Shown here: piece after piece, positions 5,656-64,000 of the stretch
How the letters are laid out: each line of letters begins with the position of its first letter
How positions within the stretch are numbered: position 1 is the first letter of the stretch
Assembly (NCBI GenBank): GCA_030591685.1
Contig: JAUVAX010000008.1
Span: 1 to 64,000, forward strand
Direction: 5' to 3'
Source of the DNA: Pseudobdellovibrionaceae bacterium
Lineage (GTDB): Bacteria; Bdellovibrionota; Bdellovibrionia; Bdellovibrionales; UBA1609
Length of the DNA stretch: 64,000 bases
The notes under the pieces: model-generated
The model's input: only the letters and a program-made list of their open reading frames with translations
Told to the model about the DNA's origin: nothing
Database searches by the model: none
Program-made: the position numbers and the translations under genes

Positions 5656-5696
5656 TCGCCTTTTATAGAACACCGCCACAAAAAAGTTAGGGTTTG

Positions 5697-6629
5697 ATGA
5701 ACATTAGCGTCTATGACAAGAGGGACTTTCCTCCGTACTTACCTAAGCTCAACGCTCTTTATGGAGATTTGTTTTCAGGGGGCAAGGGGTTTCGCTCAAA
5801 GCTCATAGAGCGTGTATCAGGGCATTTAAAGATTGATAAAAAACAAATACACCTTATGGCACAAACAATAGAGTTTATTCATAACGCCTCCCTTTTGCAT
5901 GATGACCTCATTGACCGATCCCACCTGCGAAGAAGCAAGCCCGCTGCATGGCTTAAGTACACGCCTGAATATGCTGTTTTGGCGGGGGATTATTTACTGG
6001 CCCGAGTGATGGTAAACTTATCTCGCCACGGCAATTTAGAGCTTCTGCAATACACCTCAGAAATGATCTCCGACTTACTTGAGGGCGAGTGGATACAGGA
6101 TTCATTAATAAAAGACTGGGGGGTTAACCAGACTCAACTAGATCAGGTCCATAAATTAAAAACAGCCTCTTTATTTAAATGGTGCATTCGCTCACCTTTT
6201 ATTTGTAAGGGAGGGTACTCCAAGCAAGTTCACGACGAATTAGAAGAGCTCGGGTGCTTACTTGGCTTGTTGTTTCAAAGAAGTGACGACCTTTTAGATT
6301 ATGGGATTCGTAATTACGAAAACAAGGCCGTATTAGGTGATTTAAAGTCAGGGTATGTAAATTCTTTCGGATGTTTTTTAATTAAAACCATGACCCCGTC
6401 TCAGGTGACTCAGTTTAAAAAAATTATTCAAATAGAAGATCTTCATGAGTTACTGGGTAAAGAAGTTTTTGATAAAAAAGTGGCCGAATTTGACGAGTCC
6501 AACAAACAGTATATTGAGTTATATAAGCATCACTTACAAATACTCTTAAACGTTCTGCCAGAACACGAAAAGAGCTTAATCTTAGACCTAGAAAAATTGT
6601 CAGATGTTTTATACTGGAGAAAAGCGTAA
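5697..6629 (+). CDS. polyprenyl diphosphate synthase (IspB/HepT-like)
   Basis: GGKGFR, LHDDLID (FARM), RR, KTASL, FQRSDDLLD (SARM). Confidence 0.92.
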   Translation: MNISVYDKRDFPPYLPKLNALYGDLFSGGKGFRSKLIERVSGHLKIDKKQIHLMAQTIEFIHNASLLHDDLIDRSHLRRSKPAAWLKYTPEYAVLAGDYLLARVMVNLSRHGNLELLQYTSEMISDLLEGEWIQDSLIKDWGVNQTQLDQVHKLKTASLFKWCIRSPFICKGGYSKQVHDELEELGCLLGLLFQRSDDLLDYGIRNYENKAVLGDLKSGYVNSFGCFLIKTMTPSQVTQFKKIIQIEDLHELLGKEVFDKKVAEFDESNKQYIELYKHHLQILLNVLPEHEKSLILDLEKLSDVLYWRKA

Positions 6630-6632
6630 TCT

Positions 6633-7703
6633 ATGGAGTATATTACGCTTTTAAAATCAGACCCTAAAATTAAGACGTATCTTTCAGGGGTTTTTTCTGA
6701 CACAAAAGTAGCCCTGCCTGTGCCCCCATTAAGTGGACGTGTTCCAGAGGGGACAACGTTTAAAATTTTAGAATCAAAAAATATAGATAAACCAAATTTT
6801 ATAATTATAATCAGTAAAATCATTAGAATAGAGCTTCTGGGCTTAACGATGTTTCCGTTTATTGTATCGATGCTTTATTTTTCTGCAATGGGGCACGCGG
6901 CTCCTAAATTTGAACTGTTTGTTTCACTGTGTTCAATGTTTTTTTTGCACGCCTCTGTTTTTATGTTGAATGATTACTTTGATCACACACGAGGTGGGGA
7001 CCGAATTAGCTCCACATCAGGCAGTCAGGTGATACAACTCGGTTGGATACCGGCCTATAAAGTTCTCAGAGGGGTTTATTTAAGTAGTTTAATGGCTTTA
7101 TTTTTTGCATTGCCCCTGCTGAAGAGTCACTTTTTTCAACTTTGGCCCCTGGCTTTATTTGTTTTTGTTGCAATAGTGGGGTTTTCATTTTTTGGTAAAG
7201 GTTTTAAAAATAAAGGCCTGGGTGAATTTTTTGTTTTTATGTGTCTAGGGCCACTTGTTTTTTTTGGCACATCAACTTTATTTTCTGTTTCTATGGATTT
7301 TAACTCGATTTATTTAAGTATTACATTTGGTTGGGCAAGTGTTTTTTATCAGCAACTTAAAAACTTTTCAAATATTTACTCAGACACTCAGCTATCTGTA
7401 GGGACTTTGGTGAGCCGGTGGGGCTTTGATGCGTCTAAAAAACTACTTTATGTCCAGTTTTTTTTAGTTTTATTTTTAATTTTTGGTGGCAGCTTTCTAA
7501 CTATGCCACTTTTTTTTGCTGCTCCATGGATTCTTTTTTTAAGCACTTATGGGTTTAAGATTTATAAATGTTTACGATGTGTGGGGTCGCCACTTTCTAG
7601 TCAAATGGTAAGGCTTCCTAAATTGGGGCTAAAGCTACACTCTTTAATGTCCTATGGGTTGATTGCTTATTTATTAATATTTATTTTTCTGGGTAGGCAA
7701 TGA
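6633..7703 (+). CDS. UbiA/MenA-family membrane prenyltransferase paralog
   Basis: NDYFDHTRGGD motif, GLGEFFVF, TLVSRWG; multi-TM. Confidence 0.8.
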   Translation: MEYITLLKSDPKIKTYLSGVFSDTKVALPVPPLSGRVPEGTTFKILESKNIDKPNFIIIISKIIRIELLGLTMFPFIVSMLYFSAMGHAAPKFELFVSLCSMFFLHASVFMLNDYFDHTRGGDRISSTSGSQVIQLGWIPAYKVLRGVYLSSLMALFFALPLLKSHFFQLWPLALFVFVAIVGFSFFGKGFKNKGLGEFFVFMCLGPLVFFGTSTLFSVSMDFNSIYLSITFGWASVFYQQLKNFSNIYSDTQLSVGTLVSRWGFDASKKLLYVQFFLVLFLIFGGSFLTMPLFFAAPWILFLSTYGFKIYKCLRCVGSPLSSQMVRLPKLGLKLHSLMSYGLIAYLLIFIFLGRQ

Positions 7704-8473
7704 GCATCGATCTGTCTATTGTGTGCTTTGTGGAGGGAGAACGTGAGAGATCAAACAAACTCTCTCAACTCTACGGTTGGCCCGTGGTGGGCGAAGACAG
7801 TGGTAGTCCCTGTTTGTTTTATGACCAAGGGGTGTTAAAGATTAAATGGGCCGGCTGCAAAAATTTAAAAGATGCATTTTTTATAGACTTTTTATCAAAA
7901 AAAAATATTCATTTAAAAAAAACACTTCATCAAAACCCACAATTAATTTCTAAGGCTATGGGTAAAAAACTAGGGGTCACCCAAGTATTAGATATGACAG
8001 CTGGGAGTGGTCAGGACGCTTACTTGCTATGGCTTTTAGGCTTTAAGGTCACTGCGATTGAAGCCAGCCCTATAGTGTTTGCTCTTTTGCAAGATGGACT
8101 TTGTCGATTAAGAGAGTCCCTGGCAGGGCCTGTCGAGCATGAAGCGCTAGATAATGGTTTTAAACTCGTACACATGGATTCAACAAAGTATCTGACGACA
8201 ACAACTCATAAATTTGACGCTATTTACATAGACCCTATGTTTTCTAAAAAGCCAAAGAGTGCGCTGAGCCCTAAGCCTATGCAGGTATTTCAGTCTATTT
8301 TGCCGGAGCCCCTAAGCTCTGATCGAGACAACATGATTAAGTTAGCAAGGCATAAAGCTAAAAGAGTTGTCGTCAAGGGCCCCTTATTTGAAGAGTTAAG
8401 TGATGAAGCTCCGACTCATGTATATAAGGGTAAAAGCATTAGATATGATATGTATGCCACAGTAGTCAGTTAA
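7700..8473 (+). CDS. rsmJ: 16S rRNA m2G1516 methyltransferase RsmJ family
   Basis: VLDMTAGSGQDA, IYIDPMF, RVVVKGP, IRYDMY. Confidence 0.88.
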   Translation: MSIDLSIVCFVEGERERSNKLSQLYGWPVVGEDSGSPCLFYDQGVLKIKWAGCKNLKDAFFIDFLSKKNIHLKKTLHQNPQLISKAMGKKLGVTQVLDMTAGSGQDAYLLWLLGFKVTAIEASPIVFALLQDGLCRLRESLAGPVEHEALDNGFKLVHMDSTKYLTTTTHKFDAIYIDPMFSKKPKSALSPKPMQVFQSILPEPLSSDRDNMIKLARHKAKRVVVKGPLFEELSDEAPTHVYKGKSIRYDMYATVVS

Positions 8474-8488
8474 AGTTATTGGGCCTGA

Positions 8489-8530
8489 GTTTAAACACTT
8501 CATTAAAGCGTTACGCTTAAGTGTTTAAGC
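8489..8530 (+). terminator. stem-loop after rsmJ
   Basis: TTAAACACTT...AAGTGTTTAA inverted repeat with inner AAGCG/CGCTT. Confidence 0.4.
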
Positions 8531-8560
8531 AAGGATATAGGTTGACTGAGAACCTATTAT

Positions 8561-10255
8561 TTGATGCATTTAAGTAAGTCACTAAATTTTAAGATAAGGT
8601 ATTTTTTGGAGCAAAATTTAACATTTATATTGTCACTACTTGCCGGTTTAGGGTTAGTTGTGTTTTCTATGAAAAACTTAGCATCGGGCTTTCAGGTGCT
8701 GTTTTCGCGGCCCATAAAATTTTTAATAAACTCAATCAGCATAAGCCCTTTTGTGACCCTTCTTGTAGGGGCTGTGAGTTCGTTGTTTGTTCAGTCGAGC
8801 TTTAGTAGCTCCTTAATGGCGTTGTCTTACGCCGGGTCTGGGTTGTTAAATTTATCACAATTAATTTTATTAATTATTGGTGCAAGTTTAGGGACTCTGC
8901 CCACAGTATGGCTGTTTTCACTAGAGAGTTCAGGTTTTGATTTATACCTCATCGTTCTGGGTGTTCTGCCCATGCTCTATGCGTCTTCTGTCGTATTGGC
9001 TTCTTTAGGTAAGGTGATATTTTCTTTAGGGGTTTTGTTTTTAGGCTATAATTTAATGATTATCCCTCCAGGTGCTGAGCTGTTGAGTCTTGCGCAGTCA
9101 TCCGTTGAGTACTTGTCCTCTTTTAGTGGTTTTGCAGTTTTTTGGTTAATCGTGCCGGTGGTCGTGGTGTGCTCAATGCTTTTGAGGTCTACGGTTGCAC
9201 TTATGGCTCTTCTTATGGCGCTCTCCTACAACAACATTATACCAGTAACGTTGGCTATTATGTTGGCGTTAGCCGCAAATTTGGGGCGAACTGTTCCGGT
9301 GTTTATTTCATCCTTCAGAGCAGGGATTTTACCAAAAAGAGGGGCTTTGTTTTATTTTTTAGTAAACTTTACGGGTGTATTTTTAGTATCAATATTTTTC
9401 GGTCCGTTTTTTGACCTATTAACGCGCGCCATAGGTTCTTATTCCTTTTCACATAAGGTTGATTTAATACCGGCAGCACATACTCTTTATAATATTATAT
9501 TGGTTGTTTTCTCGTTTATCTTTTTTATACCTTTAAAGTGGTGTGTTCAAAAAATATTTAAAGATAAGTCTCAAAAATCACCTCAAAAATTAAAATTTTT
9601 AGGACAAATCTCACATATGTCACCTATTTTAGCTATAGAGCAAGTTTATCAAGAGGTTAAAAAAATGGCGGCAACTTGCGAAACCACCTTGCAGCTGACG
9701 TCACTTTATTTAAATCATCGTGAAGAAGAGATAGTTGAAAAAGTACTTAAGTACGAAAAAGTAACTGATAACATCAGGCAAGAAATTTTTATTTATCTTT
9801 CAAAAGTCATGCAGGTGTCACTGTCGAGCAAGCAAGGTGAGCAGGTGAGGTCATTGCTACGGATCTCCAATGAGCTTGAGAGTATAGCTGATCGTTGTAA
9901 GCAAATAATTTTATCTCAAAAAGAAATCATTCAACTGGGCGTCCCTTTAAAGGGTGGGCTTCATGATCAGTTTAAAAAAGTAATGGAGAAGCTCAAAGAG
10001 GTCTATGAGATGACTTTTTTTCAGCTCACATCATCAAAAGATGCCGGTAACTTAGAGTACCGAAAGTACCTGACTCAGTTTGATCAAAACTTGGTAGAGC
10101 TAAGGCTTTACTACTTACAGTGGATACGTGAAGAGGTCGATAGTGAGTACCAAATCGAGGCCAGTTTAAAGTACGGTGATATTTTATTTGGTATTTACCA
10201 AATAAGAGGCCGATCTCAAAACATTATTGAATCTTATAGGTTTGGGTACCTTTAA
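8561..10255 (+). CDS. Na/Pi cotransporter family protein with C-terminal PhoU-like domains
   Basis: VQSS, IGASLGT, AANLGRT repeats; AHTLYN; ELESIAD PhoU-like helix; start uncertain. Confidence 0.85.
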   Translation: MMHLSKSLNFKIRYFLEQNLTFILSLLAGLGLVVFSMKNLASGFQVLFSRPIKFLINSISISPFVTLLVGAVSSLFVQSSFSSSLMALSYAGSGLLNLSQLILLIIGASLGTLPTVWLFSLESSGFDLYLIVLGVLPMLYASSVVLASLGKVIFSLGVLFLGYNLMIIPPGAELLSLAQSSVEYLSSFSGFAVFWLIVPVVVVCSMLLRSTVALMALLMALSYNNIIPVTLAIMLALAANLGRTVPVFISSFRAGILPKRGALFYFLVNFTGVFLVSIFFGPFFDLLTRAIGSYSFSHKVDLIPAAHTLYNIILVVFSFIFFIPLKWCVQKIFKDKSQKSPQKLKFLGQISHMSPILAIEQVYQEVKKMAATCETTLQLTSLYLNHREEEIVEKVLKYEKVTDNIRQEIFIYLSKVMQVSLSSKQGEQVRSLLRISNELESIADRCKQIILSQKEIIQLGVPLKGGLHDQFKKVMEKLKEVYEMTFFQLTSSKDAGNLEYRKYLTQFDQNLVELRLYYLQWIREEVDSEYQIEASLKYGDILFGIYQIRGRSQNIIESYRFGYL

Positions 10256-11112
10256 TGAATTAAATTATGGGGGTTAGGCTCTAAACACAAATCATAGAAA
10301 GCTGATTGAATGTCCTCAGGAGCTAAGTTTTTATCAATATACGAAAAGTACCTATTAAGATCATCTTGAGCTTGTTTTTTCTTATTCAGTGCTTTGTAAA
10401 GAAGGGCTCTTTGGCCGAGGTGCTCTAAGTTAGAGGGGTAAAGGTGCAGTAAAGTATCAAGTAGTGAGAGCTTTTGTAGAGACTGCTCTTCGCGGTTAAA
10501 TATCTCGACTAGTTTTGAAAGGTAGATATAAATTATTTTATCAAAAGTGAGGGCTTCGAGTTCTTCTGATAAAAAGTTACCAACTTTAAATCGGTCTATA
10601 ATTTGCTGAGCTTTAAGGATAGCCCCAGAGCATGAAAGGTCTAATAATTCGGACTCTTTGGGCCTTGACCATTTAAGTAAGGTGAAGGTTTCGTAATTAA
10701 GCAGGGTGATCGGTAACTGCAAGGTTTCGGTAAAGATTAAATAAAAAAGAGTCACCACCAAGGGGTGGCCTTTGCGGTTTGTAAAAGCAGGTTCAATGAG
10801 CCAATGTCTGGGGGCGATGGTTTGAGTGACACACTTAAAATCTAAGACATTGAAAAAATAATCATTCAGAGCCTCGAATCGTTCCTTTTCGTTGAGGCCT
10901 TGGGTGTCAAACTTGAGCTTTGCTAAGTGTTGGTGAAGGTCCTGAATTGAAGGTTCAATAATTTGATCTGGCCAAAGTAACTGATTTGTTGTTTGAAGTA
11001 TTGAAACCATAGAACCAAAAGATGTTTTAGTAAGCAGGTGGATTTCAAGCTGCAGTTTTTCTTTAAGTAATGTTTTTGTAAACTCCATAGAGTTAAAATT
11101 TAAGTGATCCAT
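10252..11112 (-). CDS. SirB1/YchA-like transglutaminase-fold protein with TPR
   Basis: ALNDYFF, RKGHPL, C-terminal RALLY...AQDDL..Y TPR. Confidence 0.75.
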   Translation of the reverse strand: MDHLNFNSMEFTKTLLKEKLQLEIHLLTKTSFGSMVSILQTTNQLLWPDQIIEPSIQDLHQHLAKLKFDTQGLNEKERFEALNDYFFNVLDFKCVTQTIAPRHWLIEPAFTNRKGHPLVVTLFYLIFTETLQLPITLLNYETFTLLKWSRPKESELLDLSCSGAILKAQQIIDRFKVGNFLSEELEALTFDKIIYIYLSKLVEIFNREEQSLQKLSLLDTLLHLYPSNLEHLGQRALLYKALNKKKQAQDDLNRYFSYIDKNLAPEDIQSAFYDLCLEPNPHNLIH

Positions 11113-11241
11113 GTAAAATATTCAATTAAATTAGGTGATTGTTTTCTAGTGGGTGCAGAAGAGGATAATTTTTTAATAAAACATCCCCTCAGTACTGCGT
11201 CATAAAGTGACATTTTAACAAGTCACAATGAGAATTTTGTA

Positions 11242-12141
11242 ATGGCCAATACAACAGAAGAGCAATTATTAATTAAAGTTGAAGAGTTAGAAGGTGAGCT
11301 CACGGCACGGCGAGAGGATCTCGCGAACTATCGCGCCGAGTTAAAAAATGCAAACGTTCAACTTGAGGGGATGATCGCACAGACAAACCGTGACGTAAGG
11401 TCCTTGTCTCGACTGCAAAAGTCATTGGTGCCTACGAGTTTCCCACACATTCAGGGTTTTGAGTTCTCTACAAAATTTATAGCCAGCCATGTTTCAGGAG
11501 GGGACTATTTAGATATTTTTGAGCATCAAGATCGAATGCGCTTTAGTTTACTGCTCTCAAGTGCTTCTGGGTATAGCCTATCGGCTCTTATGTTAGGGTC
11601 TTTGCTTGGGTTGTCAGGTGAATTGGACGCAAAAACTTCGAATGCGCCTCACCTTGTTGTTGAATCAATAATTAAGGAAATCCTTAAGGACGTTTCTGAA
11701 GAAGAGCAAGGAGAGCTTTTCTTTGCACTAATTAACCGTAGAAATTTAGAGTTAAAATATAGCCTTTCCGGGCAAATCCATGGTTTTCATTATAAAAACA
11801 GAGGTCGAGGTGAGCTTGTCGCCCTAGAACCGACGAGTCCGCCTATTAATATGGGCTTTGATGTGACCAGTTTAAGCTCAAAAACAATACCATTAAACTC
11901 AAATGATTTAGTTATTTTATGTTCTAGAGGCCTTGTTGAGGCTACAAATTTGGCCGGTGAAGAGTTCGGTGTTGAGAGGCTCGTGAAGACCCTTATGAGC
12001 TCACCTAAAGAGGGTGTTCATGATATTAGAAATGAGATCTTCTTTCAGGTACAAAAACACTCAGGCGGGACTGAGGTGCCTAGAGATCAATCAGTTATTG
12101 TAATGAGCGTCAAAGACCGGTCCCTAAAACTCGCCAATTAA
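11242..12141 (+). CDS. SpoIIE/PP2C-family domain protein with N-terminal coiled coil (probably degenerate)
   Basis: LQKSLVP, VSGGDYLD, GEEFGVERL, RDQSVIV. Confidence 0.85.
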   Translation: MANTTEEQLLIKVEELEGELTARREDLANYRAELKNANVQLEGMIAQTNRDVRSLSRLQKSLVPTSFPHIQGFEFSTKFIASHVSGGDYLDIFEHQDRMRFSLLLSSASGYSLSALMLGSLLGLSGELDAKTSNAPHLVVESIIKEILKDVSEEEQGELFFALINRRNLELKYSLSGQIHGFHYKNRGRGELVALEPTSPPINMGFDVTSLSSKTIPLNSNDLVILCSRGLVEATNLAGEEFGVERLVKTLMSSPKEGVHDIRNEIFFQVQKHSGGTEVPRDQSVIVMSVKDRSLKLAN

Positions 12142-12306
12142 TTTAACATAGAGTTTTCTTTGGGGTGCCTTGTGAGGGGCTATGTTTCCCCGGACTAAAA
12201 AAGGTCTCAATTTGAGCAGAGTCTTATTTCAAAGACTATACCTTTGTTGCTATTAGTGATAGAGGTATGAACTCACTGTACTACCATTTGAGAAAGGATT
12301 TAAGAA

Positions 12307-13437
12307 ATGTCAGAAGTCTATGCTGGGGCCGTAGATAAGGGGCTTGAGGGTGTGATTGCCTGTACCACAGCCATTTCCTCTATTGTTGATGCAGCACTTT
12401 GCTACAGAGGCTACTTAATTGAAGATTTAGCTGAAAATTCAAGCTTTGAAGAAACAGTATACTTGTTATGGAATGATCATTTACCAAGCAAAGAAGAGTA
12501 TACGGAGTTTAAAAATATCTTAAGGTCTGAGTTGAGCTTAAGGTCTGAACAAATTGAGCTTTTAAAGCAAATACCGGTTAAAGATGTTCACCCTATGGCT
12601 TGGCTTCGTACAGCGGTGTCGTTATTAGCTCTTTGGGATAAGGAGAGTCAGTTAGATACGCCTGAGGCTCACCAAAACATCGCAATTCGCCTGACAGCTA
12701 AAATGGGGACTCTAGTCGCTTTATTTGAAAGATTAAGACAAGGAAAGGGCTATGTAGCCCCTAATCCCGAAAAGTCTTTTGCTTGGAACTTTTTGTATAT
12801 GATCTCAGGTCAAGAGCGTGATGATGAGATCGTAAAAATATTTGATACCTGCTTAATTCTTCATGCAGACCATGAGCTCAACTGCTCGGCTTTTGCTTCA
12901 AGAGTGACGGCTTCGTCTTTAAGTGACATCTACTCAGCGGTCACCAGTGCTATTGGCGCTTTAAAAGGTCCATTGCATGGTGGGGCTAATGAGCGAGTGA
13001 TGCGAATGTTAGTTGATATTAAAACCGTTGAGAAGGCAAAGCAGTGGGTTGATAGTGCCCTCACAAATAAAGAAAAGATTATGGGCTTTGGCCATAGGGT
13101 ATATAAAAATGGGGACCCACGAGCTAAAATTTTAAGAAGCATGAGCGAGTCTTTATGCAATAAATCCGGCAATGATTACTATAAAATGTCAAAAGTAATA
13201 GATGACACCGTCCAAACAGAAAAGGGCCTTTTGCCTAATGTAGATTTTTATTCAGCTTCTGTATATTACAGCATGGGGATCCCTTTAGATTTATATACTT
13301 CAATATTTACGGTCTCAAGAGTGAGTGGCTGGTTGGCTCATATTTTAGAGCAATATAAAAATAACCGCATATATCGCCCTCGAGGTGAGTGGGTGGGTAA
13401 GACGGGTTTAAAATACGCCCCCCTATCAGGTCGTTAA
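12307..13437 (+). CDS. citrate synthase / 2-methylcitrate synthase family
   Basis: KGLEGV, HADHELN, GPLHGGANE, MGFGHRVYK, PNVDF. Confidence 0.95.
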   Translation: MSEVYAGAVDKGLEGVIACTTAISSIVDAALCYRGYLIEDLAENSSFEETVYLLWNDHLPSKEEYTEFKNILRSELSLRSEQIELLKQIPVKDVHPMAWLRTAVSLLALWDKESQLDTPEAHQNIAIRLTAKMGTLVALFERLRQGKGYVAPNPEKSFAWNFLYMISGQERDDEIVKIFDTCLILHADHELNCSAFASRVTASSLSDIYSAVTSAIGALKGPLHGGANERVMRMLVDIKTVEKAKQWVDSALTNKEKIMGFGHRVYKNGDPRAKILRSMSESLCNKSGNDYYKMSKVIDDTVQTEKGLLPNVDFYSASVYYSMGIPLDLYTSIFTVSRVSGWLAHILEQYKNNRIYRPRGEWVGKTGLKYAPLSGR

Positions 13438-22929: not shown

Positions 22930-24525
22930 ATGAATAAATTTGATGTAATTGTAGTGGGCACGGGTATGGGTGGTTCTACTGCGGGGTACACACTGGCCAA
23001 ATCGGGGCTTAGGGTATTGTTTTTAGAAAAGGGCAAATCACGATTTAACAGCGATTTTGACTTTATAAAAGGCCATGAGGCTGAGAGTTATTACTATAAA
23101 AATAAAAAATCTCAGCTAGATGATGTTATGAGATCATCAGGCCGGTACAGTTGTGTAATAAAAGATAACAGTGCGTTTTTTAGCAAAAGATTTCGGCCCT
23201 TCATCGGGTCCGGTGACGGCGGGGGCTCGGCTATTTATGGAGCGATACTTCAGCGCTTTTCCCCTGAAGACTTTGAACTCACAAAATTAGAACCTGTAGA
23301 TGGCGGGAGGCCTCTTGAGTCTCAAACTAAGTGGCCGGTCTCCTACAATGAGATGCGGCCCTACTATAAAGAGGCCGAGAGTTTATATAAGGTTCATAAA
23401 TACAGTAAGAGTAGTGAACCAGAAGCACTCTCAGAGGCGAATAAGACAGTTTGGGATCAATTAAAAAAAAACGGTCTTAACCCCTACATGCTCCCGGTTG
23501 CAACTGAAAACTTAGACGAGTGTTATAATAACTGTCAGGGTTTCTTGTGTGCTAAGAATTGTAAACACGACAGTTCTAAGTGTGCATTAAAACCAGCCAT
23601 TGAGGGCTTAGGAGCACAGCTATTTGATGAGTGTGAGGTTTTAGAGCTAAAGTCTGAAAACAAAAAAGTAACTCACCTTTTATGCAACCATAAGGGCAAA
23701 ATTATTTCTTTGAGTGCCGAAACTATAGTTTTAGCAGCGGGAGCATTGGTCACACCAACATTGCTTCTTAAGTCAAAGAACATGGCAAATAGTTCTGGTT
23801 TGGTGGGTAAAAATTTAATGCGTCATTACATTGATGTTTATCAGATTAGTTTGAAGGCTCATAAAATCCCTTCATTTTCACAAAAACAAATTGGATTTAA
23901 TGATTTTTATAATGAATGCGGTGAAAAACTTGGGAGCGTTCAATCATTTGGGGTTCACCCTCCCTTTGAGGTTATATTAGATGAGCTTTTAAGTAAAACA
24001 CCCCTTTTATTGAAAGGGGTTGTGAGCTTCGCTTTAAGGTTAATGTTGCCGATGTTGAGGGGTGTATATAAAAATTATATCGACAATAAGCTTTTAATTG
24101 TTAGCCTTTTAGAGGATGCCCCGAATATAAATAATTGTGTGACTTATAAAGGCGGAGAAATAAATATAAAGTATAGAATTTTTAAAAAAGAAAAACAGAG
24201 AATTAACAAATTTAGAAAAAAAATCAAGAAGGCATTTTCAGGGTTAAACGTAACTCTTTTTAAGCAAGTTAGTGAAAACAAGCGCATAGCCCATGCATGT
24301 GGGACTTGCCGATTTGGGGCTGACCCTAAATCCTCAGTTCTTGATAAAAACAATAAGTGTCATGATTTAGATAACCTTTACATTGTGGACTCATCATTTT
24401 TCCCCACCAGTGGGGGGACAAACCCCTCTCTAACAATTGCAGCCAATGCAATACGAGTGGGAGAGTTTATTGCAAAAAAAATAAACATTCATGATAACTA
24501 TAACAAGCGAGAAGCTGAGATATGA
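22930..24525 (+). CDS. GMC family FAD oxidoreductase
   Basis: GTGMGG, GGGSAIYGA, AAGALVTP.LLL.S, VGKNLMRH, HACGTCRFG, NPSLTIAANA. Confidence 0.92.
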   Translation: MNKFDVIVVGTGMGGSTAGYTLAKSGLRVLFLEKGKSRFNSDFDFIKGHEAESYYYKNKKSQLDDVMRSSGRYSCVIKDNSAFFSKRFRPFIGSGDGGGSAIYGAILQRFSPEDFELTKLEPVDGGRPLESQTKWPVSYNEMRPYYKEAESLYKVHKYSKSSEPEALSEANKTVWDQLKKNGLNPYMLPVATENLDECYNNCQGFLCAKNCKHDSSKCALKPAIEGLGAQLFDECEVLELKSENKKVTHLLCNHKGKIISLSAETIVLAAGALVTPTLLLKSKNMANSSGLVGKNLMRHYIDVYQISLKAHKIPSFSQKQIGFNDFYNECGEKLGSVQSFGVHPPFEVILDELLSKTPLLLKGVVSFALRLMLPMLRGVYKNYIDNKLLIVSLLEDAPNINNCVTYKGGEINIKYRIFKKEKQRINKFRKKIKKAFSGLNVTLFKQVSENKRIAHACGTCRFGADPKSSVLDKNNKCHDLDNLYIVDSSFFPTSGGTNPSLTIAANAIRVGEFIAKKINIHDNYNKREAEI

Positions 24526-25160
24526 AAATGAATACCCTTGAAAAATGGGCAATGAACAACCCTGTAAGAACACTCTTTCAACGTTACCTAGAAGCACCGG
24601 TTTTAATAAAAAGAGGGGGATTACTTAGGGGGAAACGTGTTCTTGAAATTGGCTGCGGCAGAGGGGTTGGGACCCAGCTTCTTCTGGAAGATTTTAAAGC
24701 ACAGTCTGTTTTAGCCATTGATCTAGATGAGGACATGATATTAAAAGCTAAAAAAAGGCTTTCGAGTTACCCTTCCGATCGACTTGAAGTACAAGTTGGT
24801 GATTTAACTAAACTAAATTGTAGTGACCAATCCTTTGATGCTGTGGTTAACTTTGCGGCGATTCACCATGTGCCAAATTGGCAAAAGGCACTGTGCGAAA
24901 TCCACAGAGTGTTAAAAAATGAGGGCCAGTTTTTTTTTCAAGAAGTCACAGCTCAGTGGATTCATCGGTTTCCTTATTCGGTGTTGTTCAAGCATCCAAA
25001 AGAAAACAGATTTACAGGGCTCGAGTTTATTAAAGAGCTTGAGAGAGCGGGGATTGTAGTAGGGGACAACTACGAAGAGCGAGCCGGAGGAGATTTTATC
25101 TATGGCGTAGGGCGGCGGGCAGAAAATGAAAACCATAAGAATAAAAAAGAGGTTTTGTGA
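24522..25160 (+). CDS. class I SAM-dependent methyltransferase
   Basis: VLEIGCGRG, FDAV, IHHV; overlaps upstream stop. Confidence 0.9.
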   Translation: MKMNTLEKWAMNNPVRTLFQRYLEAPVLIKRGGLLRGKRVLEIGCGRGVGTQLLLEDFKAQSVLAIDLDEDMILKAKKRLSSYPSDRLEVQVGDLTKLNCSDQSFDAVVNFAAIHHVPNWQKALCEIHRVLKNEGQFFFQEVTAQWIHRFPYSVLFKHPKENRFTGLEFIKELERAGIVVGDNYEERAGGDFIYGVGRRAENENHKNKKEVL

Positions 25161-26065
25161 GTAAAACAGAAAGTAAAGTAAAGCTTGAGTCTTGCCCTGT
25201 TTGCCAGAGTAAAATAGATGATTCGTCACCTGAAAATTTAGGAAAAGTTAGAGGCAATACCGAAAGGTTTAAAAATACTGAATTTAATATTTGGAAGTGT
25301 CCGAACTGCCGAACACTCTTGGCCATTGACCCTGTTGATTTTGATGATATTTACAGTGACTACCCTTTGAATGAACGAAAACTAGATGCTTTTGCAAAGG
25401 GTACCTTTAGTAACCTGCTCGCTCGATTAAAGAAGGTTGGTGTTAAAAAGACAGATTATATCCTTGATTACGGGTCCGGCCGGGGTTTGTTCGTCGAGTA
25501 CCTCAAACAAAAGGGGTATATGAACTCATTTAGTTATGACCCTTATTGCTTGGGGTTTAAAGAGCTGCCGATATCTCAGGGTGGGTTTGACGTTGTCATT
25601 AATAATGATGTTTTAGAGCATTGTGAAGATATTCACAAAGTCATCAATCATAATTTTGAGTTACTTAAGGAAGGTGGAGTGCTGTATATAGGCACCCCCG
25701 AATCAGATCCTGTGAACATTAAAAACCTAGAGCCTGAAATTATGCGCCTTCACCAGCCCTTTCATAGAATTATTTTAACTGAAAAGTCACTTCATGAAGT
25801 TGTGTTAAATTATAATGTGAGTCTTGTTGCTAGCTATAAGAGGTCTTATCATGACACCTTGAGGCCGTTTTCTAACTATCGATTTTTAGATGAGCTCAAT
25901 AAAGCTTTAGGTCATAATTTAGATTTAGCAATGGATGAAAGCATAACAACGCGCACATTTTTACTAAACCCTCAGTTGTGGTTTTTTGCTATTTTTGGGT
26001 ACTTTTTTCCTTCAGCTTATGAGCCGGCGGTAATCGTACGAAAGTCGATCTCAAAACCCACTTAG
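25157..26065 (+). CDS. class I SAM-dependent methyltransferase with N-terminal Zn ribbon
   Basis: CPVC...CPNC, LDYGSGRG, DVLEH, GGVLYIGTP. Confidence 0.88.
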   Translation: MSKTESKVKLESCPVCQSKIDDSSPENLGKVRGNTERFKNTEFNIWKCPNCRTLLAIDPVDFDDIYSDYPLNERKLDAFAKGTFSNLLARLKKVGVKKTDYILDYGSGRGLFVEYLKQKGYMNSFSYDPYCLGFKELPISQGGFDVVINNDVLEHCEDIHKVINHNFELLKEGGVLYIGTPESDPVNIKNLEPEIMRLHQPFHRIILTEKSLHEVVLNYNVSLVASYKRSYHDTLRPFSNYRFLDELNKALGHNLDLAMDESITTRTFLLNPQLWFFAIFGYFFPSAYEPAVIVRKSISKPT

Positions 26066-57879: not shown

Positions 57880-57895
57880 TGGCATATTAATTGCT
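57880..57895 (+). promoter_or_regulatory. sigma-54 promoter of the orphan secreted-protein operon
   Basis: TGGCAT-ATTAA-TTGCT; same -24/-12 boxes as flgF promoter; about 50 nt upstream of ATG 57944. Confidence 0.8.
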
Positions 57896-57943
57896 ATAGA
57901 GGTTGTTAAGGATCACTCGAAAACAATAAGGACACAGTAAATA

Positions 57944-59038
57944 ATGAAATTCCTCACTTTATTAATTACTCTTAATGTAGCTTTAGCCTCGTTGGCCCAG
58001 TCAGTGGGGTTCCAAAAGAATGATCTGTTTGCTGACCTCTTTAAGTACAGCTACAATTCATCAAAACTTATTAAAAGCGAATTTTATAATCTAGCAGATT
58101 ATATGATGTCAGAATGTGAAGCACATGATCATAAACTAAACTTTCTATGTGAGTTCCCCATCTCGGTCTCTGAATTCAGGCAAAGAGAACGTTGGATTAC
58201 TGAAAATACGCTTGATCCTATGAACCCATTAAGTGGCGGTCAAATTTATCTAGCTCAGGATGAATGGACAGATCATGATATAAGGACTCTCAGCTGGAGT
58301 CTCGGCCTTGCACTTACAGGATTAGACGAACAAACATCTATTGTAAAAAAGACTCTAGGTTGGTTACTCCTAAAGGAATCTGTAAAGTTTGAGGCTAAAA
58401 AACTAAAGGACCTCTTTAAATGGCGATCATCCAAAAAAGCCTATCAATTGGAATATACTTCTCTACCGCATATAATATCGAGTTTACAGAGCCCCTACGC
58501 TTTTTCTCAAGCCATCGACTTTGCCGAACAAATTGAATGCAGAGATCTTGTGATTTGCCTTGATATAAAAAGAGCACTGAAAAATATGGCCATAAATAAC
58601 ATTTTAAACCCAAGTATTATGGGAAAATCTAAAGCTATTTTGAAGGGGCTAAGGGCGGAGAACGAGTATACCTCTGGCCGAGTAAAAGTGGCCTTTGAGA
58701 GGGTCAGCCTTATAAAGAAATTAAGTAAGGCTGTCTATGAGAAAAAAGACATGGGGGATAACCAGCACTTACTTAATACTCTTGTCGAAGTATTAAAAAG
58801 GGATGTTGTTTCATATAGAAGGCTCACCCTTTCGTTACATATAATTAAATTAGAAACTCTAATTGAATATCAAGAGAAGTATAAAAACCAAGTAGTCACA
58901 AAAGATTTACCTTATATAAAAAACTACCCCGGGTATAAATTATTAGAGGATAAAATTAAAAATGACATCATAGAAACATTTAGAGTTCTGTCTCATGAAT
59001 TAGAAAACACACAAAATGGCCTTGAAAATGGAGGGTAA
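57944..59038 (+). CDS. secreted hypothetical helical protein (operon gene A)
   Basis: Signal ending SLA; SD AAGGA; two Cys pairs. Confidence 0.8.
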   Translation: MKFLTLLITLNVALASLAQSVGFQKNDLFADLFKYSYNSSKLIKSEFYNLADYMMSECEAHDHKLNFLCEFPISVSEFRQRERWITENTLDPMNPLSGGQIYLAQDEWTDHDIRTLSWSLGLALTGLDEQTSIVKKTLGWLLLKESVKFEAKKLKDLFKWRSSKKAYQLEYTSLPHIISSLQSPYAFSQAIDFAEQIECRDLVICLDIKRALKNMAINNILNPSIMGKSKAILKGLRAENEYTSGRVKVAFERVSLIKKLSKAVYEKKDMGDNQHLLNTLVEVLKRDVVSYRRLTLSLHIIKLETLIEYQEKYKNQVVTKDLPYIKNYPGYKLLEDKIKNDIIETFRVLSHELENTQNGLENGG

Positions 59039-59039
59039 A

Positions 59040-60218
59040 ATGAAAAAGCATAAATATATAAACACAAGTCTATCTTTAGTAGTACTTTTAACCTTAAGTG
59101 CTTGTACAAAAAAACAACATGATGATTACCCTGCTCAACAAAAAAATAATATAGGTAAAAAGATAAACTCAGAGCCGCCGCGCTATAAATATGAATTAGA
59201 AAATATATATAGGCACGTTAAATGGAATATTGAATTAACAGTAAATGAACCCATACACTTTGAGTCAAAAGCTGAATGCATATTCAGCAGTGTATATAGT
59301 GATACTTGTAATTTAAGGGAAATAGTGCGAGTACAGCAAGGGCCTAAAATCTATTACTTAAAGCAGGCACAGCCGGCCTCCGAAGCCTCATCAGCGGTAA
59401 AATTAAATGCAGGTGAGCGAATTTATAAAAAATCTTATAATTTATCTACAATTAAAAAACACAAAGCCGATTTTAAAAGTCTAGAATCTGAATTCTTTAA
59501 CCTTTTAGACAATTCAACACCAGTAAAAATTATTGAATTTACAGACAAAATTGACATGCCTCTCTACAGAAGGGCACTCAAAATACAGTACCACTACCAA
59601 ACGAATCGTTGTAAATCTGAGATACTTACTGAGTTGGCTCAACAGTGCCCTATAAAAAATCGAAGTATATATTTAAGCAACCTGGCTACGAGCCTTTCTA
59701 GTATTCTAGTTCCATCAAACCTACAATTAATTGAAATTGATATTAATAGTTCTAACTTTCTAGGTTTACCGAGGATAAAAAACAACAGACATTACCCGCA
59801 TAATCGATATGCGCCAGGAATTTTTATAGAAAACCCCAGACTTAAAACTGTTCGTATTCAACTGAATAAACTCATTGACGAAAACAACCTTGTTGATTCT
59901 GTCCAGCCTACATTTCAGACGGGTTTAAAGTTTTACTCAATGTTCTGCTCTGATATTTATCAAAGAATATATATCGAGGATCTTGGAAATAAAGATGGGA
60001 GATATTTCTCTGACGATGGAGACTATTATAACAAGGATATCGATTACAAGGCGGGGCAAGAGATTAGTTTAGAATGGGATAAAGAATTTGAAATAGTTGA
60101 ACTTATAAATTTCATATCCGATGATATTTTTAATCCAAAACAAATAGTTAGTTATTTTAATGTTAATTATAAATATGACTTTAAAAAGACCATTAACCTG
60201 GGAGCCCCTTGTGAATAA
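59040..60218 (+). CDS. hypothetical lipoprotein (operon gene B)
   Basis: SD GGAGG, ATG 59040; MKKHKYINTSLSLVVLLTLSA-C lipobox. Confidence 0.8.
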   Translation: MKKHKYINTSLSLVVLLTLSACTKKQHDDYPAQQKNNIGKKINSEPPRYKYELENIYRHVKWNIELTVNEPIHFESKAECIFSSVYSDTCNLREIVRVQQGPKIYYLKQAQPASEASSAVKLNAGERIYKKSYNLSTIKKHKADFKSLESEFFNLLDNSTPVKIIEFTDKIDMPLYRRALKIQYHYQTNRCKSEILTELAQQCPIKNRSIYLSNLATSLSSILVPSNLQLIEIDINSSNFLGLPRIKNNRHYPHNRYAPGIFIENPRLKTVRIQLNKLIDENNLVDSVQPTFQTGLKFYSMFCSDIYQRIYIEDLGNKDGRYFSDDGDYYNKDIDYKAGQEISLEWDKEFEIVELINFISDDIFNPKQIVSYFNVNYKYDFKKTINLGAPCE

Positions 60219-62091
60219 CTAATATATATGTAGACTCAAAAAATTAACTATAATTGCACTAAGTTGCGCTTATACACCAATAGCACTGGGTAATCTATCC
60301 GTGGCAGTTGATGTAGATGTGAGCATGAACCTAACTGGCTCCCTTATGCATCACATAAAGGCCAGTCAATTAGACCCCTGCTGGCGCTTAAATGGAAAGA
60401 GGACGCCGTCAACATATGGTCCTAAAGAGGCAAGTAAAAAAATAAAAATAAATCTAGAGACCTCTAAAACACTCACTTATCATTTATATGCCTCTGGGGT
60501 AAATGCCTCGTCAAGGTTACTAACTCATAAAATTTCTGACGATGGTGAATACCACACACTTAGAAGTTTAACCCTTAAATCAACAATAGAAAAAACTAAC
60601 AATACTGAATCTGTCGAGTTAGACCTATCTGAATTAAGACCCATAGATAATAACAAGGGTCTTGGCACATACTTTAACAATAATACTTGCGAAAGCTTTA
60701 ATTACAATTACATTTTTTCACAACCAAAAATTTCAGGTCATATTTTAGTGAAATATAAAATGCCTAAAAATAGTTACCTAGTTAAGGTCACAAGAACACG
60801 TGCTGAATCACTTTTGTCTATAGAAAACAGTAAGGTTAATGGGTTTAGGGGGCTTAAAAACGCCCTTAACAGAAATCTTGATAAATCAGTGATTAAACAG
60901 ACATACTATATTTGGGCAAAACCCGGCAGCACATTAATACAGGATTTTGAATACAGAGAAATGAAAGATGACTTTAGCGGTCATTTAAAATTTAAATTCG
61001 AACCTATAATTGCGAAAGATGTAAAAATTAATACCAGTTCGTTTCGTAAGTTCACCAAAAAATTAGAAAATCTTCTAATGGCAGTTAACACTAAAGTACA
61101 AATTAAACCTAAGGATTTTCATCTAATAGAAGAAGAATTTGCAGAAGAAATGGCAGGAATTGTAGGGAATGAAGAAAACATACAAGAGATAGCTAAAATA
61201 CTTTCACTTAAAGAGTTATCAAGATTTCTTAATATGTTAATAACGTTAAGGGATTCAAATGTCAATCAGGCCGAATTTTCTACTGTAAAATTGGGCATAA
61301 GTATATTTACCCATCAAATGACTCAGGCCTTATTGGCGGACCTTTTGCCTTTATGTGAAAGTATAACGATAAAACTGCCGTATAAGGATAAAAAAATTAC
61401 TACAGACATGGTTCGAGTTGCGAGTTATTTATTAAAAAAAGCGGCATTGAGGTTAGAAAACACAACCATAAAGCCATTTGAAAGCCTTATTTCAAATATT
61501 TATGAATATCAAAAAAAAGGATTATCATTTAGTCAAATTAGAAATAACATGTCAGAGTACGAAAAAATATTAAAATCGTATTATAATGTCGCGGGCGCCA
61601 TAGATGTAAGGCAAAGTCCGATCAAAGAGGCTTATAATAATATTGCATATATTTTAGATGAAACAAATAAATTAAAAATAAAAAATAAAGACCATGAAGA
61701 CATACTTTTAAAATTAGAGCAGGCGATGGAATTAGAGAATAATTTCACAAATGAGCTGTCTGATTTCATTAGACTATTTTCAGGCACAAACACTGACCCT
61801 ATTAATATATCTGAATTAAAGAGAGGGGCTGAGAATATTGAAAGACTGGTGAATAAAACTATAGAAGAACTTAAATCAAACAGGGGGGTATTTGCAGTGT
61901 CTAATAACGGGGTTCTGTTTGTTTATAACTTCATAGCATCCCTCGGAGCTCATGAAATTGATCCCTTAATAGAGCCGCTGAAATCAGACTTAGAATATTT
62001 CAGACGTGCATTTTATGATCAGAAGTATCTAGTCAAAACATCAGAGAAAATTAAATTATGCCGCCTAGGAGTTGAAAATGAGACAGATTAA
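60211..62091 (+). CDS. secreted hypothetical protein, beta-rich N half and helical C half (operon gene C); in-frame TAA at codon 4 of the probable true start
   Basis: GGAG SD plus GTG 60211, TAA 60220-60222, then in-frame signal-like RLKKLTIIALSCAYTPIALG into the 60301-62091 ORF. Confidence 0.72.
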
Positions 62092-63901
62092 AAATATATT
62101 AACACTAATTATATGTATATCTTTAAGCACGCCAGCTTTTTCTAAAAATGAGTTTATGGAGAACGCTAAGGAGTCCATTGTTGCGGCAAACGAAGCGGCA
62201 GATAATCTGGTGGATACGTTGGTGGCACAGAATATTGCTGGCGCTCTCAATGAGGCTATATCTAAAGTTTCCTCACTAGAGGAGAATAAACACAAAAGAG
62301 ATAGTTTTGTTTTAGCTATGAAGAATCTAAAGATTAAATTTGAGAATTTTCAATCTAAGCCGCAAGATAGTTATGAAGTCACTAAAGAGGCCATTGAGGT
62401 GGCCTATGCTCAGTATATTAACTATTATAGAGAGGTCATGGATAGCTCATGGAATCCTATTTCAATTGACCATCAATTTAAATCATTACCTAAAGTTTTG
62501 TCCTCAACACTGAGTCATATTAGGGAGCAATGCGATGCGGGGATCTCGATTGATAATTTTGAGAATATAGTTCAGTCTTCAGAGGATTTACCGAAATATG
62601 AGTTTGATTGGGAGATAATGTTAAATCTTTCAGCAGATTATACCCCAAGTTACGCCGACTATCAGGCTTATAACTATTTAGAAGAGAACAGCACTCGTAC
62701 ATTTTTATTTGATGCCTCAAAGTATGCCTTTGCAGGGTCTACAGGCGTTGCAAGCATTCAGGGGGCGGCATATTTAAATACTTTTATGGCCGGCGGGACA
62801 CTGGCTTCAGCCGAACTCACTGGCGCAATAGGTACGGCCTCTAATGCTGCAATGGCAATTATGCCTTACGCCGCTGCAGCTATGGTTGTAATGGCTCTTA
62901 TCATGGACATCTCAGCAAGAAACAAGTTAGACAAGTTACAAAGACAAAAGGCCGCCGCTGATGTGTATAAAATAAAAAATACAAGGCGATCACAATGGCT
63001 AAAGGCTGAATATGCCACCCGCTGTGAAACAATGAAGGGATTACTAAGCACACTAATTACTGACTTAAATTTTGTAGCTAATAATATTAGTAATCAAAAG
63101 GCGTTGAGTGATTATTATACAAATGACCTTATGGACTTAAAAAATGCCTATAGTAAAATGGAGGATTTCAAAACCGCTAAGCAAATGCTAAAGCTTGAGT
63201 CACTATATAACAAGAAGCTTTGTGTCAGTGAGGGTGTGTATAAAAATATCGACCCAGACCTTTTTGTGTCAGCTAAAAGCAGTATACCTAAGTGTTATGC
63301 CTCTCCAGATAATTCAACCCTACATCTTGTTGACGGCAACCATTCACAACTTTTAATTAAAATTACTAAAAGTGGAAAGTTAGACATTGATCAAAAATTC
63401 ATTCAATCGTCATTGAATGAATTTAAATCTAAGGATGGCGATACGTTTTCTGACAATAAAAAAATATTCGCCACCAATAGCATGTACATAAGGTATAAAA
63501 TTTATGAAATGTTCGTAGTACAAAGAAAGAGTATTATGAATAGTATGAAGTCATTTTCAGGATCATACCTGTCTAAAGTTCAAACGCAGGCTTTTAATAG
63601 ACTTCTAAATTTAATTTCAGTTTATAGAAATTTTAAATCTAGGCCAATTGATAAAATTCTTAATGACGAGCTTGATGCTCAAAAGGAGTATAGTACCTTA
63701 GTCAGTGAGTTTAATGATCTCCTTAACTTAAGTACAAACTATATTTTTGGAAAGGTTAAAAAATCAGTTGTTAGACTTAAGAGCATGGCTTTAAATCAAA
63801 AAATGAGTAGTTTCTATGATAGATACGTATACATCGCTGAGGTTACAGACCTGATGAGAGACTTTAAAGGGTATAAACAATCACTTGGCTTTAAACATTA
63901 A
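62078..63901 (+). CDS. secreted helical protein with long hydrophobic segment; candidate pore-forming or membrane-inserting subunit (operon gene D)
   Basis: SD GGAG, signal ending PAFS; about 60-aa Ala/Gly-rich hydrophobic stretch flanked by coiled-coil-like regions. Confidence 0.78.
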   Translation: MRQIKNILTLIICISLSTPAFSKNEFMENAKESIVAANEAADNLVDTLVAQNIAGALNEAISKVSSLEENKHKRDSFVLAMKNLKIKFENFQSKPQDSYEVTKEAIEVAYAQYINYYREVMDSSWNPISIDHQFKSLPKVLSSTLSHIREQCDAGISIDNFENIVQSSEDLPKYEFDWEIMLNLSADYTPSYADYQAYNYLEENSTRTFLFDASKYAFAGSTGVASIQGAAYLNTFMAGGTLASAELTGAIGTASNAAMAIMPYAAAAMVVMALIMDISARNKLDKLQRQKAAADVYKIKNTRRSQWLKAEYATRCETMKGLLSTLITDLNFVANNISNQKALSDYYTNDLMDLKNAYSKMEDFKTAKQMLKLESLYNKKLCVSEGVYKNIDPDLFVSAKSSIPKCYASPDNSTLHLVDGNHSQLLIKITKSGKLDIDQKFIQSSLNEFKSKDGDTFSDNKKIFATNSMYIRYKIYEMFVVQRKSIMNSMKSFSGSYLSKVQTQAFNRLLNLISVYRNFKSRPIDKILNDELDAQKEYSTLVSEFNDLLNLSTNYIFGKVKKSVVRLKSMALNQKMSSFYDRYVYIAEVTDLMRDFKGYKQSLGFKH

Positions 63902-63971
63902 GGGAATGTTTTTTAATTATTATTTACGGTTCCCTTGTTTTAAAGGCTCTAAGTTACTTAAGGAGTACAAT

Positions 63972-64000
63972 ATGAAGAATTTTTTAAAAATCATATTAGG
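63972..64000 (+). CDS. start of next probably secreted ORF (operon gene E), truncated by window edge
   Basis: AAGGAG SD then ATG; MKNFLKIIL signal-like start. Confidence 0.6.

What the first reader, a model, noticed from the sequence alone, without database searches (positions are those of the whole stretch)
57880..64000. Sigma-54-driven operon of five or more large exported orphan proteins: candidate novel multi-component envelope-attack complex
Seen: directly after flgL, a -24/-12 motif with the same boxes as the flgF promoter precedes genes A-D, which abut or overlap, plus the start of gene E. All have export-type N-termini: A Sec, B lipoprotein, C cryptic Sec, D Sec, E signal-like. The region looks more AT-rich than the core genes, none of the proteins has a motif I recognise, and D has a membrane-insertion-like segment. 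Known: multi-subunit alpha-PFTs (Hbl/Nhe, YaxAB, SmhABC) are co-transcribed helical proteins where only some carry the hydrophobic tongue. csrA-fliW often follow flgL in related taxa but are absent here, suggesting an insertion. Inference: a stoichiometric secreted or surface-anchored complex, plausibly for prey membrane attack and possibly co-regulated with motility.
Basis: partly seen in the sequence, partly recalled or inferred. Interest (0 to 1): 0.85.

Follow-up and report, generated by a model that had tools for sequence, protein, structure and literature searches.

The report
New six-gene toxin system of Bdellovibrionales
Four exported proteins of unknown family sit in front of a toxin gene with a swappable enzyme tip and a small antidote-like gene in many predatory bacteria, and they likely form an undescribed machine that delivers the toxin into rival cells, with one part predicted to insert into membranes.

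Summary
The contig continues past the window. Gene E (737 aa) ends in a bacterial EndoU nuclease domain, and an 84-aa MafI-family immunity gene follows. The order A–B(lipoprotein)–C–D–E–small gene recurs across the order Bdellovibrionales: D is found in 27 of 384 genomes. E keeps a conserved core but carries 9 tip clusters in 23 proteins (EndoU, RES, and a tip shared with RHS and PT-TG toxins). The downstream genes change with the tip. This is a polymorphic toxin system. A–D match no Pfam, NCBIfam or PDB sequence family. D has a conserved hydrophobic stretch at the same place in all 103 aligned homologues (median uncharged run 47 residues). Its predicted helical bundle weakly resembles ClyA-family pore protomers (Z 9.1, inconclusive). 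A sigma-54-type site precedes A in 13 of 21 loci. csrA-fliW are displaced 11.7 kb, not absent. Here C has a stop at codon 4, either an error or decay. Best reading: a Sec-exported, multi-protein delivery apparatus with D as membrane translocator, aimed at related bacteria. Binding and translocation are inferred only.

The parts
57880..57895 (+). sigma-54-type -24/-12 site (TGGCA-N7-TGCT), about 50 bases before gene A
   Evidence: similar site upstream of A in 13 of 21 loci; rpoN present
57944..59038 (+). Gene A, 364 aa, Sec-type N-terminus, four conserved cysteines, no known family
   Evidence: homologous in 19 of 20 positional members by leave-one-out
59040..60218 (+). Gene B, 392 aa, predicted lipoprotein (LSAC, Cys22 invariant); likely membrane anchor
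   Evidence: lipobox pattern in 17 of 20 homologues; 18 of 21 homologous
60211..62091 (+). Gene C, about 625 aa: signal peptide, N-terminal domain of long beta-strands, C-terminal helical bundles; in this assembly a TAA at 60220 (codon 4) separates the likely start from the rest
   Evidence: (AF2 pLDDT 80); 22 of 22 homologous
62078..63901 (+). Gene D, 607 aa: signal peptide, long helical bundle, conserved hydrophobic hairpin at about residues 205-280; candidate membrane translocator
   Evidence: (AF2 pLDDT 87)
63972..64000 (+). Start of gene E, a 737-aa polymorphic toxin that runs on past the window to G000:C35 66185: signal peptide, conserved core (about 300-445), Gly-rich helical region (446-575), C-terminal EndoU nuclease tip with His642 and His653. 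It is followed, beyond the window at G000:C35 66190-66444 (+), by an 84-aa MafI-family immunity gene.
   Evidence: (PF14436, E 1.3e-9, above cut-off); immunity gene: (NF033691, E 1.5e-11, 43.9 bits against cut-off 31)

Best explanation
This is a six-gene cassette of Bdellovibrionales in which E carries an exchangeable toxin tip followed by an immunity-like gene, and the four exported proteins A-D likely form its dedicated delivery apparatus, with D predicted to insert into the target membrane so that the tip would reach the cytoplasm of a rival cell. Steps: (1) the operon is likely transcribed from the sigma-54-type site (motif shown, activity inferred). (2) A-E are likely exported by Sec and disulfide-bonded (hydrophobic N-termini shown; conserved Cys shown in A-D). 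(3) Lipoprotein B would tether or stage the complex, and A and the beta-rich C would act as scaffold or receptor-binding parts (inferred). (4) E would be loaded through its system-specific core; D's roughly 47-residue uncharged hairpin would enter the membrane, alone or as an oligomer, and with E's Gly-rich region would pass the tip across (inferred). (5) The tip would kill, here as an EndoU RNase (family shown) and in about half of the relatives as a RES domain. (6) The cytoplasmic immunity protein would protect producer and clone-mates, so the likely targets are other Bdellovibrionales or neighbouring bacteria. Confidence by layer: polymorphic toxin-immunity system about 0.93; A-D as its dedicated delivery module about 0.75; D as membrane translocator about 0.5.
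For: E tip EndoU and downstream MafI both pass curated cut-offs. Gene order: C (whole or part) lies directly before D in 26 of 26 loci examined. A and B precede C in 21 of these 26; four end at a contig edge and one has only a C fragment. E follows D in 23 of 26; two have no room and one is split over two contigs. The E core is found in 26 of the 27 D-positive genomes. D and E-core pairwise identities correlate (rho 0.59, 0 of 2000 permutations; shared descent is enough to explain this). Tips form 9 clusters among 23 E proteins. The window's EndoU-tipped E is sister (98/94) to a protein with another tip inside a 100/99 clade of that other tip, and identity falls from 31-38% in the core to 13% in the tip. 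That other tip also ends RHS and PT-TG proteins, which lack the E core. RES matches in 12 of 26 tips, 10 at or above cut-off. A small ORF follows E in 25 of 28 loci; the multi-member clusters of these ORFs never mix tip classes, and only 1 of 22 has a hydrophobic N-terminus. D: the hydrophobic peak falls in the same region in 103 of 103 sequences, KD19 is at least 1.6 in 93, and the median uncharged run is 47 aa; A, B, C and E have no such run. The best natural match to the D model on re-alignment is the ClyA pore protomer (Z 9.1, rmsd 8.1, 220 of 285 residues), with AhlB, SmhB, AhlC, MakA and XaxB also in the top 50.
Against: The structural match of D is weak: Foldseek best E 0.027 with TM 0.13/0.22 and rmsd 19; a designed three-helix bundle scores higher (Z 10.4); the wide search is headed by generic bundles, best Z 9.2. 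The tongue is modelled with pLDDT below 50. Two E-like toxins sit behind different upstream genes rather than D (L118, L120), so E-type proteins are not strictly tied to A-D. In this assembly C is interrupted, and C or A is split in other loci (L045, L059, L025), so some copies may be decaying. No arrays of orphan tip/immunity cassettes were seen, and there are no paralogues in this genome. How the proteins cross the producer's outer membrane is unexplained.
Confidence: 0.7

Rival explanations
1. A-D only anchor or display toxin E on the surface or in vesicles (a MafA-like role spread over four proteins). E enters targets by itself through its Gly-rich helices, and D's hydrophobic hairpin anchors it in the producer's own membrane.
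For: E has its own Gly-rich pre-toxin region, with weak Atlas leads to MafB and PT-TG clusters (0.86 and 0.84, leads only). E-like proteins occur without D. In Neisseria, MafB is secreted without MafA (PMC4287609, passage).
Against: D's uncharged run (median 47 aa, small-residue rich, between long helices) and its nearest folds fit an insertion hairpin better than a plain anchor. Four large conserved partners exceed what an anchor needs.
Confidence: 0.17
2. One reading: A-D form a multi-subunit alpha-pore-forming complex that attacks prey membranes, and E is a passenger effector used on prey.
For: D resembles ClyA-family protomers weakly. All parts are exported. The hosts belong to a predatory order. 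The sigma-54-type site is conserved.
Against: The cassette is patchy (27 of 384 genomes), low in GC here and found at varying sites, unlike core predation genes. It ends in tip-swapped enzymatic toxins with matching cytoplasmic immunity-like genes. C is not ClyA-like beyond a four-helix bundle, and A and B lack long hydrophobic runs.
Confidence: 0.09
3. The window's own copy is a dead or dying island (C interrupted); only relatives' copies work.
For: In-frame TAA at codon 4 of C; split C or A in three other loci.
Against: The rest of C (622 codons) and all five other genes are open and full length. The only run holding the region has a depth of about 2-6, so a base error is plausible. This rival concerns this copy, not the system.
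Confidence: 0.04

Closest known systems
Neisseria Maf system (mafA-mafB-mafI)
   Same: Signal-peptide toxin with a lineage-specific N-terminal region, EndoU tip, MafI-family immunity gene, upstream lipoprotein (PMC4287609 and PMC3482391, passages).
   Different: No DUF1020/MafB hit in any of 21 E proteins. Four upstream partners instead of one. A membrane-inserting-type partner (D). No downstream arrays of spare tip cassettes seen.
Streptomyces umbrella toxin particles (UmbABCD)
   Same: Secreted multi-protein particle built around a polymorphic toxin (PMC11062931, abstract start and passages).
   Different: Umb uses Tat export and ALF repeats in Streptomyces and relatives. E has Sec-type N-termini and no ALF hit. 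The D-to-Umb1 match is only coiled-coil level (Z 6.3).
ClyA-family alpha-pore-forming toxins (ClyA, AhlABC, SmhABC, YaxAB/XaxAB, MakABE)
   Same: D is a long helical bundle with a central hydrophobic tongue; these are prominent among its natural fold neighbours. Family features from PMC9558359 (passages).
   Different: No sequence match. D is 607 aa with extra domains and a signal peptide. Its partners are not ClyA paralogues. It is encoded with an enzymatic polymorphic toxin and an immunity gene.
Sec-dependent polymorphic toxins with lineage-specific N-termini (Zhang et al. 2012)
   Same: General class: signal peptide, variable tip (Tox-RES is a listed tip), cognate immunity gene.
   Different: That paper's table lists no signature neighbour genes for the Sec route, and 'Bdellovibrio' occurs 0 times in the 300,000 characters held. 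Here four conserved neighbour genes define the system.

Membership tests
Polymorphic toxin system | Conserved N-terminal/core region with a variable C-terminal toxin domain | tested here: met
   9 tip clusters in 23 E proteins; core conserved in 21 of 21 by leave-one-out
Polymorphic toxin system | Tips shared with unrelated delivery systems | tested here: met
   EndoU and RES Pfam hits; third tip also on RHS and PT-TG proteins
Polymorphic toxin system | Adjacent cognate immunity gene that varies with the tip | tested here: met
   MafI hit here; small ORF after E in 25 of 28 loci; clusters follow tip class
Polymorphic toxin system | Export signal or delivery route | tested here: met
   Hydrophobic N-terminus in 21 of 21 E proteins (hydropathy heuristic); outer-membrane step unknown
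Polymorphic toxin system | Toxicity and neutralisation shown | not testable with these tools
   needs expression assay
Polymorphic toxin system | Orphan tip/immunity cassettes downstream (common, not universal, so not defining) | tested here: not met
   none after the window's immunity gene or elsewhere in G000; one locus has a duplicated immunity-like gene (L011)
Maf system | DUF1020/MafB N-terminal domain | tested here: not met
   0 of 21 E proteins hit PF06255 at E 0.01
Maf system | MafI-family immunity protein | tested here: met
   NF033691 above cut-off in this locus; 0 of 21 other immunity-like ORFs
Umbrella toxin | ALF repeats and Tat signal | tested here: not met
   no ALF Pfam hit; N-termini read as Sec-type by eye
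ClyA-family alpha-PFT (protein D) | Long helical bundle with ClyA topology | tested here: inconclusive
   ClyA pore Z 9.1, rmsd 8.1, 220 aligned; below the ~13 level needed for helical bundles
ClyA-family alpha-PFT (protein D) | Conserved central hydrophobic tongue/hairpin | tested here: met
   103 of 103 peak at reference 200-290; median uncharged run 47 aa
ClyA-family alpha-PFT (protein D) | Sequence similarity to family profiles | tested here: not met
   no such Pfam hit for 7 D proteins; none in PDB with the 103-sequence profile
ClyA-family alpha-PFT (protein D) | Oligomeric pore in membranes; ClyA-type partner subunits | not tested

The most novel reading that the evidence does not exclude
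D is a remote ClyA-type pore protomer repurposed as a protein translocon, and A-D with E form a self-contained, needle-free A-B toxin machine: a polymorphic toxin delivered through an alpha-pore-forming-toxin channel, used by predatory bacteria to poison rival predators.
Probability: 0.3. Interest if true: 0.92.

Novelty: new variant of a known kind. Interest (0 to 1): 0.78.

Why it matters
Polymorphic toxin systems are classified by how they deliver their tips, and few routes are known (CDI, T6SS, T7SS, Maf, outer-membrane exchange, umbrella particles; recalled, with Maf and Umb checked in passages). Four orphan families tied to one toxin scaffold point to another route. My searches found no such system described for Bdellovibrionales. 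It would give these predators a means of kin discrimination or predator-versus-predator conflict. It also makes a direct test possible of whether a ClyA-like hairpin protein can carry an enzyme across a membrane, and it supplies several unnamed toxin tips and immunity families.

Tried and rejected
Pfam/NCBIfam on the window's A-D: nothing above cut-off; 0 of 22 C proteins; 7 D proteins gave only weak unrelated hits. PDB sequence-profile searches for A, B, C, D, E and two tips: nothing meaningful; B's hits cover only the lipoprotein N-terminus. C as a secretin: Foldseek hits to InvG/GspD had E 2e-4 to about 1e-3 but TM about 0.1 and rmsd 26-29, and none is in the top 50 on re-alignment; I treat them as long-strand look-alikes, and C's beta domain was barely tested on its own. 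No ClyA-family chain is listed in the wide search's top 50 for D. C and D as paralogues: rejected. Atlas: no usable lead for C's beta domain (0.76); for E's core only unnamed clusters and weak MafB/PT-TG leads. Word-seeded searches found almost nothing; profile searches were needed. No D match in plasmids. Phylum sample: 14 of 401 genomes; outside the order only one strong hit (G680, which has C-D); six weak hits at E above 1e-4 were not followed. Sigma-70 and terminator scans were at chance level. No RNA holder was listed and no contigs of two same-study RNA runs lay on the region; this is no evidence on expression. Whether the TAA in C is real stays open: the listed contig pieces do not cover base 60220, and six pieces were not shown. 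Earlier findings: none returned. The 'TNT-like' label I first considered for the GGxQ-type tip is recalled only and got no support.
Full report
Setting. The window is G000:C35:1-64000 of a 2.66-Mb, 98-contig genome. The contig runs to 70,889, so the cut-off gene E could be read in full. All 8 titled records carrying a C homologue are Bdellovibrionales or Bdellovibrionaceae MAGs, and one close E homologue is named from a Bdellovibrionaceae bacterium. I infer that order for the window. The only run holding the region is a cold-seep metagenome, possibly its source.

Observation. The -24/-12 motif is at 57880. It is not significant within the window (12 of 100 shuffles reach 3 matches), but genome-wide 49 of 76 matches fall in the 21% of DNA outside long ORFs, and rpoN is present. 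A matrix trained on 48 other sites of this genome finds a site upstream of gene A at p of 0.05 or less in 13 of 21 cassette loci, about 1 being expected (mononucleotide shuffles, approximate starts). The plain pattern TGGC-N8-TGC occurs in 5 of 21 against 1.6% of background windows. The promoter type therefore appears to travel with the cassette. Genes A-E and the last gene are spaced +1, -8, -14, +70 and +4 bases. GC is 0.347, below all 1010 sampled 8.5-kb windows. csrA and fliW are present 11.7 kb downstream. In 3 of 4 relatives with an flgL match, FliW lies about 0.7 kb behind flgL; in the fourth it lies 8.5 kb behind (5 genomes searched). C has a likely GTG start at 60211 followed by TAA at codon 4. 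The hydrophobic leader lies just after the stop, and 20 of 22 family members (this frame included) have such a leader. Contigs of the one run have a depth of about 2-6 and the listed pieces do not cover the base, so error versus true mutation is open.

What lay beyond the window. E (737 aa, contig 63972-66185) ends in EndoU_bacteria (E 1.3e-9, above cut-off) with two histidines, 642 and 653. Two conserved histidines mark the EndoU site of MafB (PMC4287609, passages); I did not align them to it. The next gene (contig 66190-66444) is a MafI-family immunity protein.

Conservation. D found homologues in 5 of 60 relatives; its profile found 27 of 384 genomes of the order, in 6 families, and 117 representatives at 50% identity. 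In a 401-genome phylum sample only one strong hit lay outside the order. I examined 26 loci from 25 genomes. C, whole or in part, precedes D in all 26. A and B precede C in 21; four others end at a contig edge and one (L025) keeps only a C fragment. E follows D in 23; two have no room and one is split over two contigs. Leave-one-out profiles confirm homology for 19 of 20 A, 18 of 21 B, 22 of 22 C and 21 of 21 E cores. The E profile hits 37 genomes: 26 of the 27 D-positive ones, plus 11 others that mostly match only the tip. The 27th, G086, has C-D followed by a 747-aa exported ORF that the E profile did not detect. Two other loci hold E-like toxins behind different genes (L118, L120). Flanking genes differ from locus to locus; among the loci whose upstream flank is held, only this one follows flgL (read by eye).

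Polymorphism. The last 120 residues of 23 E proteins form 9 clusters: 12 RES-type, 4 of an unnamed type and 7 singletons, some of which may be distant kin. RES matched 12 of 26 tips, 10 at or above cut-off. Tox-RES is a listed polymorphic toxin tip (PMC3482391, passages); its NAD-consuming activity is recalled. The unnamed tip also ends RHS and PT-TG proteins (6 of 12 hits are not E proteins). On a tree of the E core (residues 300-560, 23 rows, none dropped) the window's protein is sister to G027 (98/94) inside a 100/99 clade whose other three members carry the unnamed tip, so the EndoU tip was most likely swapped in. The proteins are only 25-38% identical, so the swap may be old, and the tip classes are still clustered on the tree (4 of 200 shuffles as low). 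A small ORF follows E in 25 of 28 loci; two have no room and one shows none. The 21 compared form 13 clusters, and none of the three multi-member clusters mixes tip classes. Only 1 of 22 has a hydrophobic N-terminus, as expected for cytoplasmic immunity.

The orphan parts. D (AF2, 103 sequences, pLDDT 87, pTM 0.67) is a bundle of very long helices with a low-confidence segment at 224-256. Its hydrophobic peak lies at reference 200-290 in 103 of 103 sequences, reaches KD19 1.6 in 93, and sits in an uncharged run of median 47 residues, enough for a two-helix hairpin; the A, B, C and E families have median runs of 15-18.5. Foldseek ranks the SmhB pore first (E 0.027, TM 0.13/0.22, rmsd 19). Re-alignment puts a designed three-helix bundle first (Z 10.4) and the ClyA pore protomer second (Z 9.1, rmsd 8.1, 220 of 285), with AhlB, SmhB, AhlC, MakA and XaxB at Z 5.6-6.7. 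The wide search is headed by generic bundles. D thus looks like it could work as an alpha-pore protomer, but membership of the ClyA family is not established. C (AF2, 22 sequences, pLDDT 80) has an N-terminal domain with strands up to 21 residues and a helical C-terminal half. Secretin hits were weak and the helical part is a generic four-helix bundle. B is a predicted lipoprotein. A, B, C and D have conserved cysteines, consistent with an exported, disulfide-bonded life. A, B and E were not folded.

Mechanism. Shown: operon anatomy, co-inheritance, tip variation, immunity-type gene, export-type N-termini, D's hydrophobic segment. Inferred: A-D form a particle or surface assembly that binds E's system-specific core (residues 300-445, absent from other carriers of the same tip), docks on a target and uses D's hairpin, with E's Gly-rich helices, to pass the tip into the cytoplasm. 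Matching cytoplasmic immunity and tip turnover suggest conflict among related bacteria rather than routine prey killing, and the patchy distribution (7% of genomes sampled) argues against a core predation role.

Comparison and novelty. The closest known systems are Maf (same tip and immunity family here, but no DUF1020), umbrella particles (multi-protein, but Tat/ALF; PMC11062931, passages) and ClyA-family toxins (PMC9558359, passages). Eight full-text searches (listings only) showed no title or abstract opening that describes this cassette. 'Bdellovibrio' occurs 0 times in the held text of PMC3482391 and of PMC13483458 (passages). In 10.1101/2025.01.14.632903 it occurs 3 times; I saw one, unrelated passage. 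Supplements were not read: large tables in these surveys could list individual E proteins, and most subscription papers are not searched. Verdict: a new variant of a known kind, a polymorphic toxin system with an apparently undescribed four-protein delivery module. Interest 0.78.

Noticed in passing
G000:C35 66541-68703 (-), L001:11541-13703: 720-aa exported orphan (P0007) with no Pfam/NCBIfam hit above cut-off, convergent with the cassette and also lying between flgL and csrA.
   Followed up: partly
L118 (G126:C246) 741-4311; L120 (G325:C265) 2-3494: E-like toxins behind different exported upstream genes, not D; possibly sister delivery systems.
   Followed up: partly
L119 (G086:C27) 4195-13177: Divergent cassette: 401-aa and 528-aa exported ORFs, a 240-aa lipoprotein-like ORF, C, D, then a 747-aa ORF not detected by the E profile.
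   Followed up: partly
L012 and L045 (G010): One genome holds two cassettes with different tips; in L045 gene C is split by a stop.
   Followed up: partly
L011:6412-7102: Tandem duplicated immunity-like gene (111 and 112 aa) behind E.
   Followed up: no
P0136, P0137: Signal-peptide PT-TG toxins, one from Bacteriovorax sp. Seq25_V, share the unnamed tip but not the E core; they may mark a further Sec-exported toxin system in the phylum.
   Followed up: partly
L117 (G680:C211): C-D pair outside the order, on a 4.1-kb contig; possible horizontal transfer.
   Followed up: partly
window 2-709 (-): ORF that reads like a REP-associated tyrosine transposase (recalled resemblance, not tested).
   Followed up: no
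window 22930-26065: GMC-type oxidoreductase followed by two methyltransferase-like ORFs; possible small biosynthetic unit (by eye).
   Followed up: no
G025:C1 2137252-2146162: Another relative has about 8.5 kb between flgL and fliW without a D match; the site may be an insertion hotspot.
   Followed up: no
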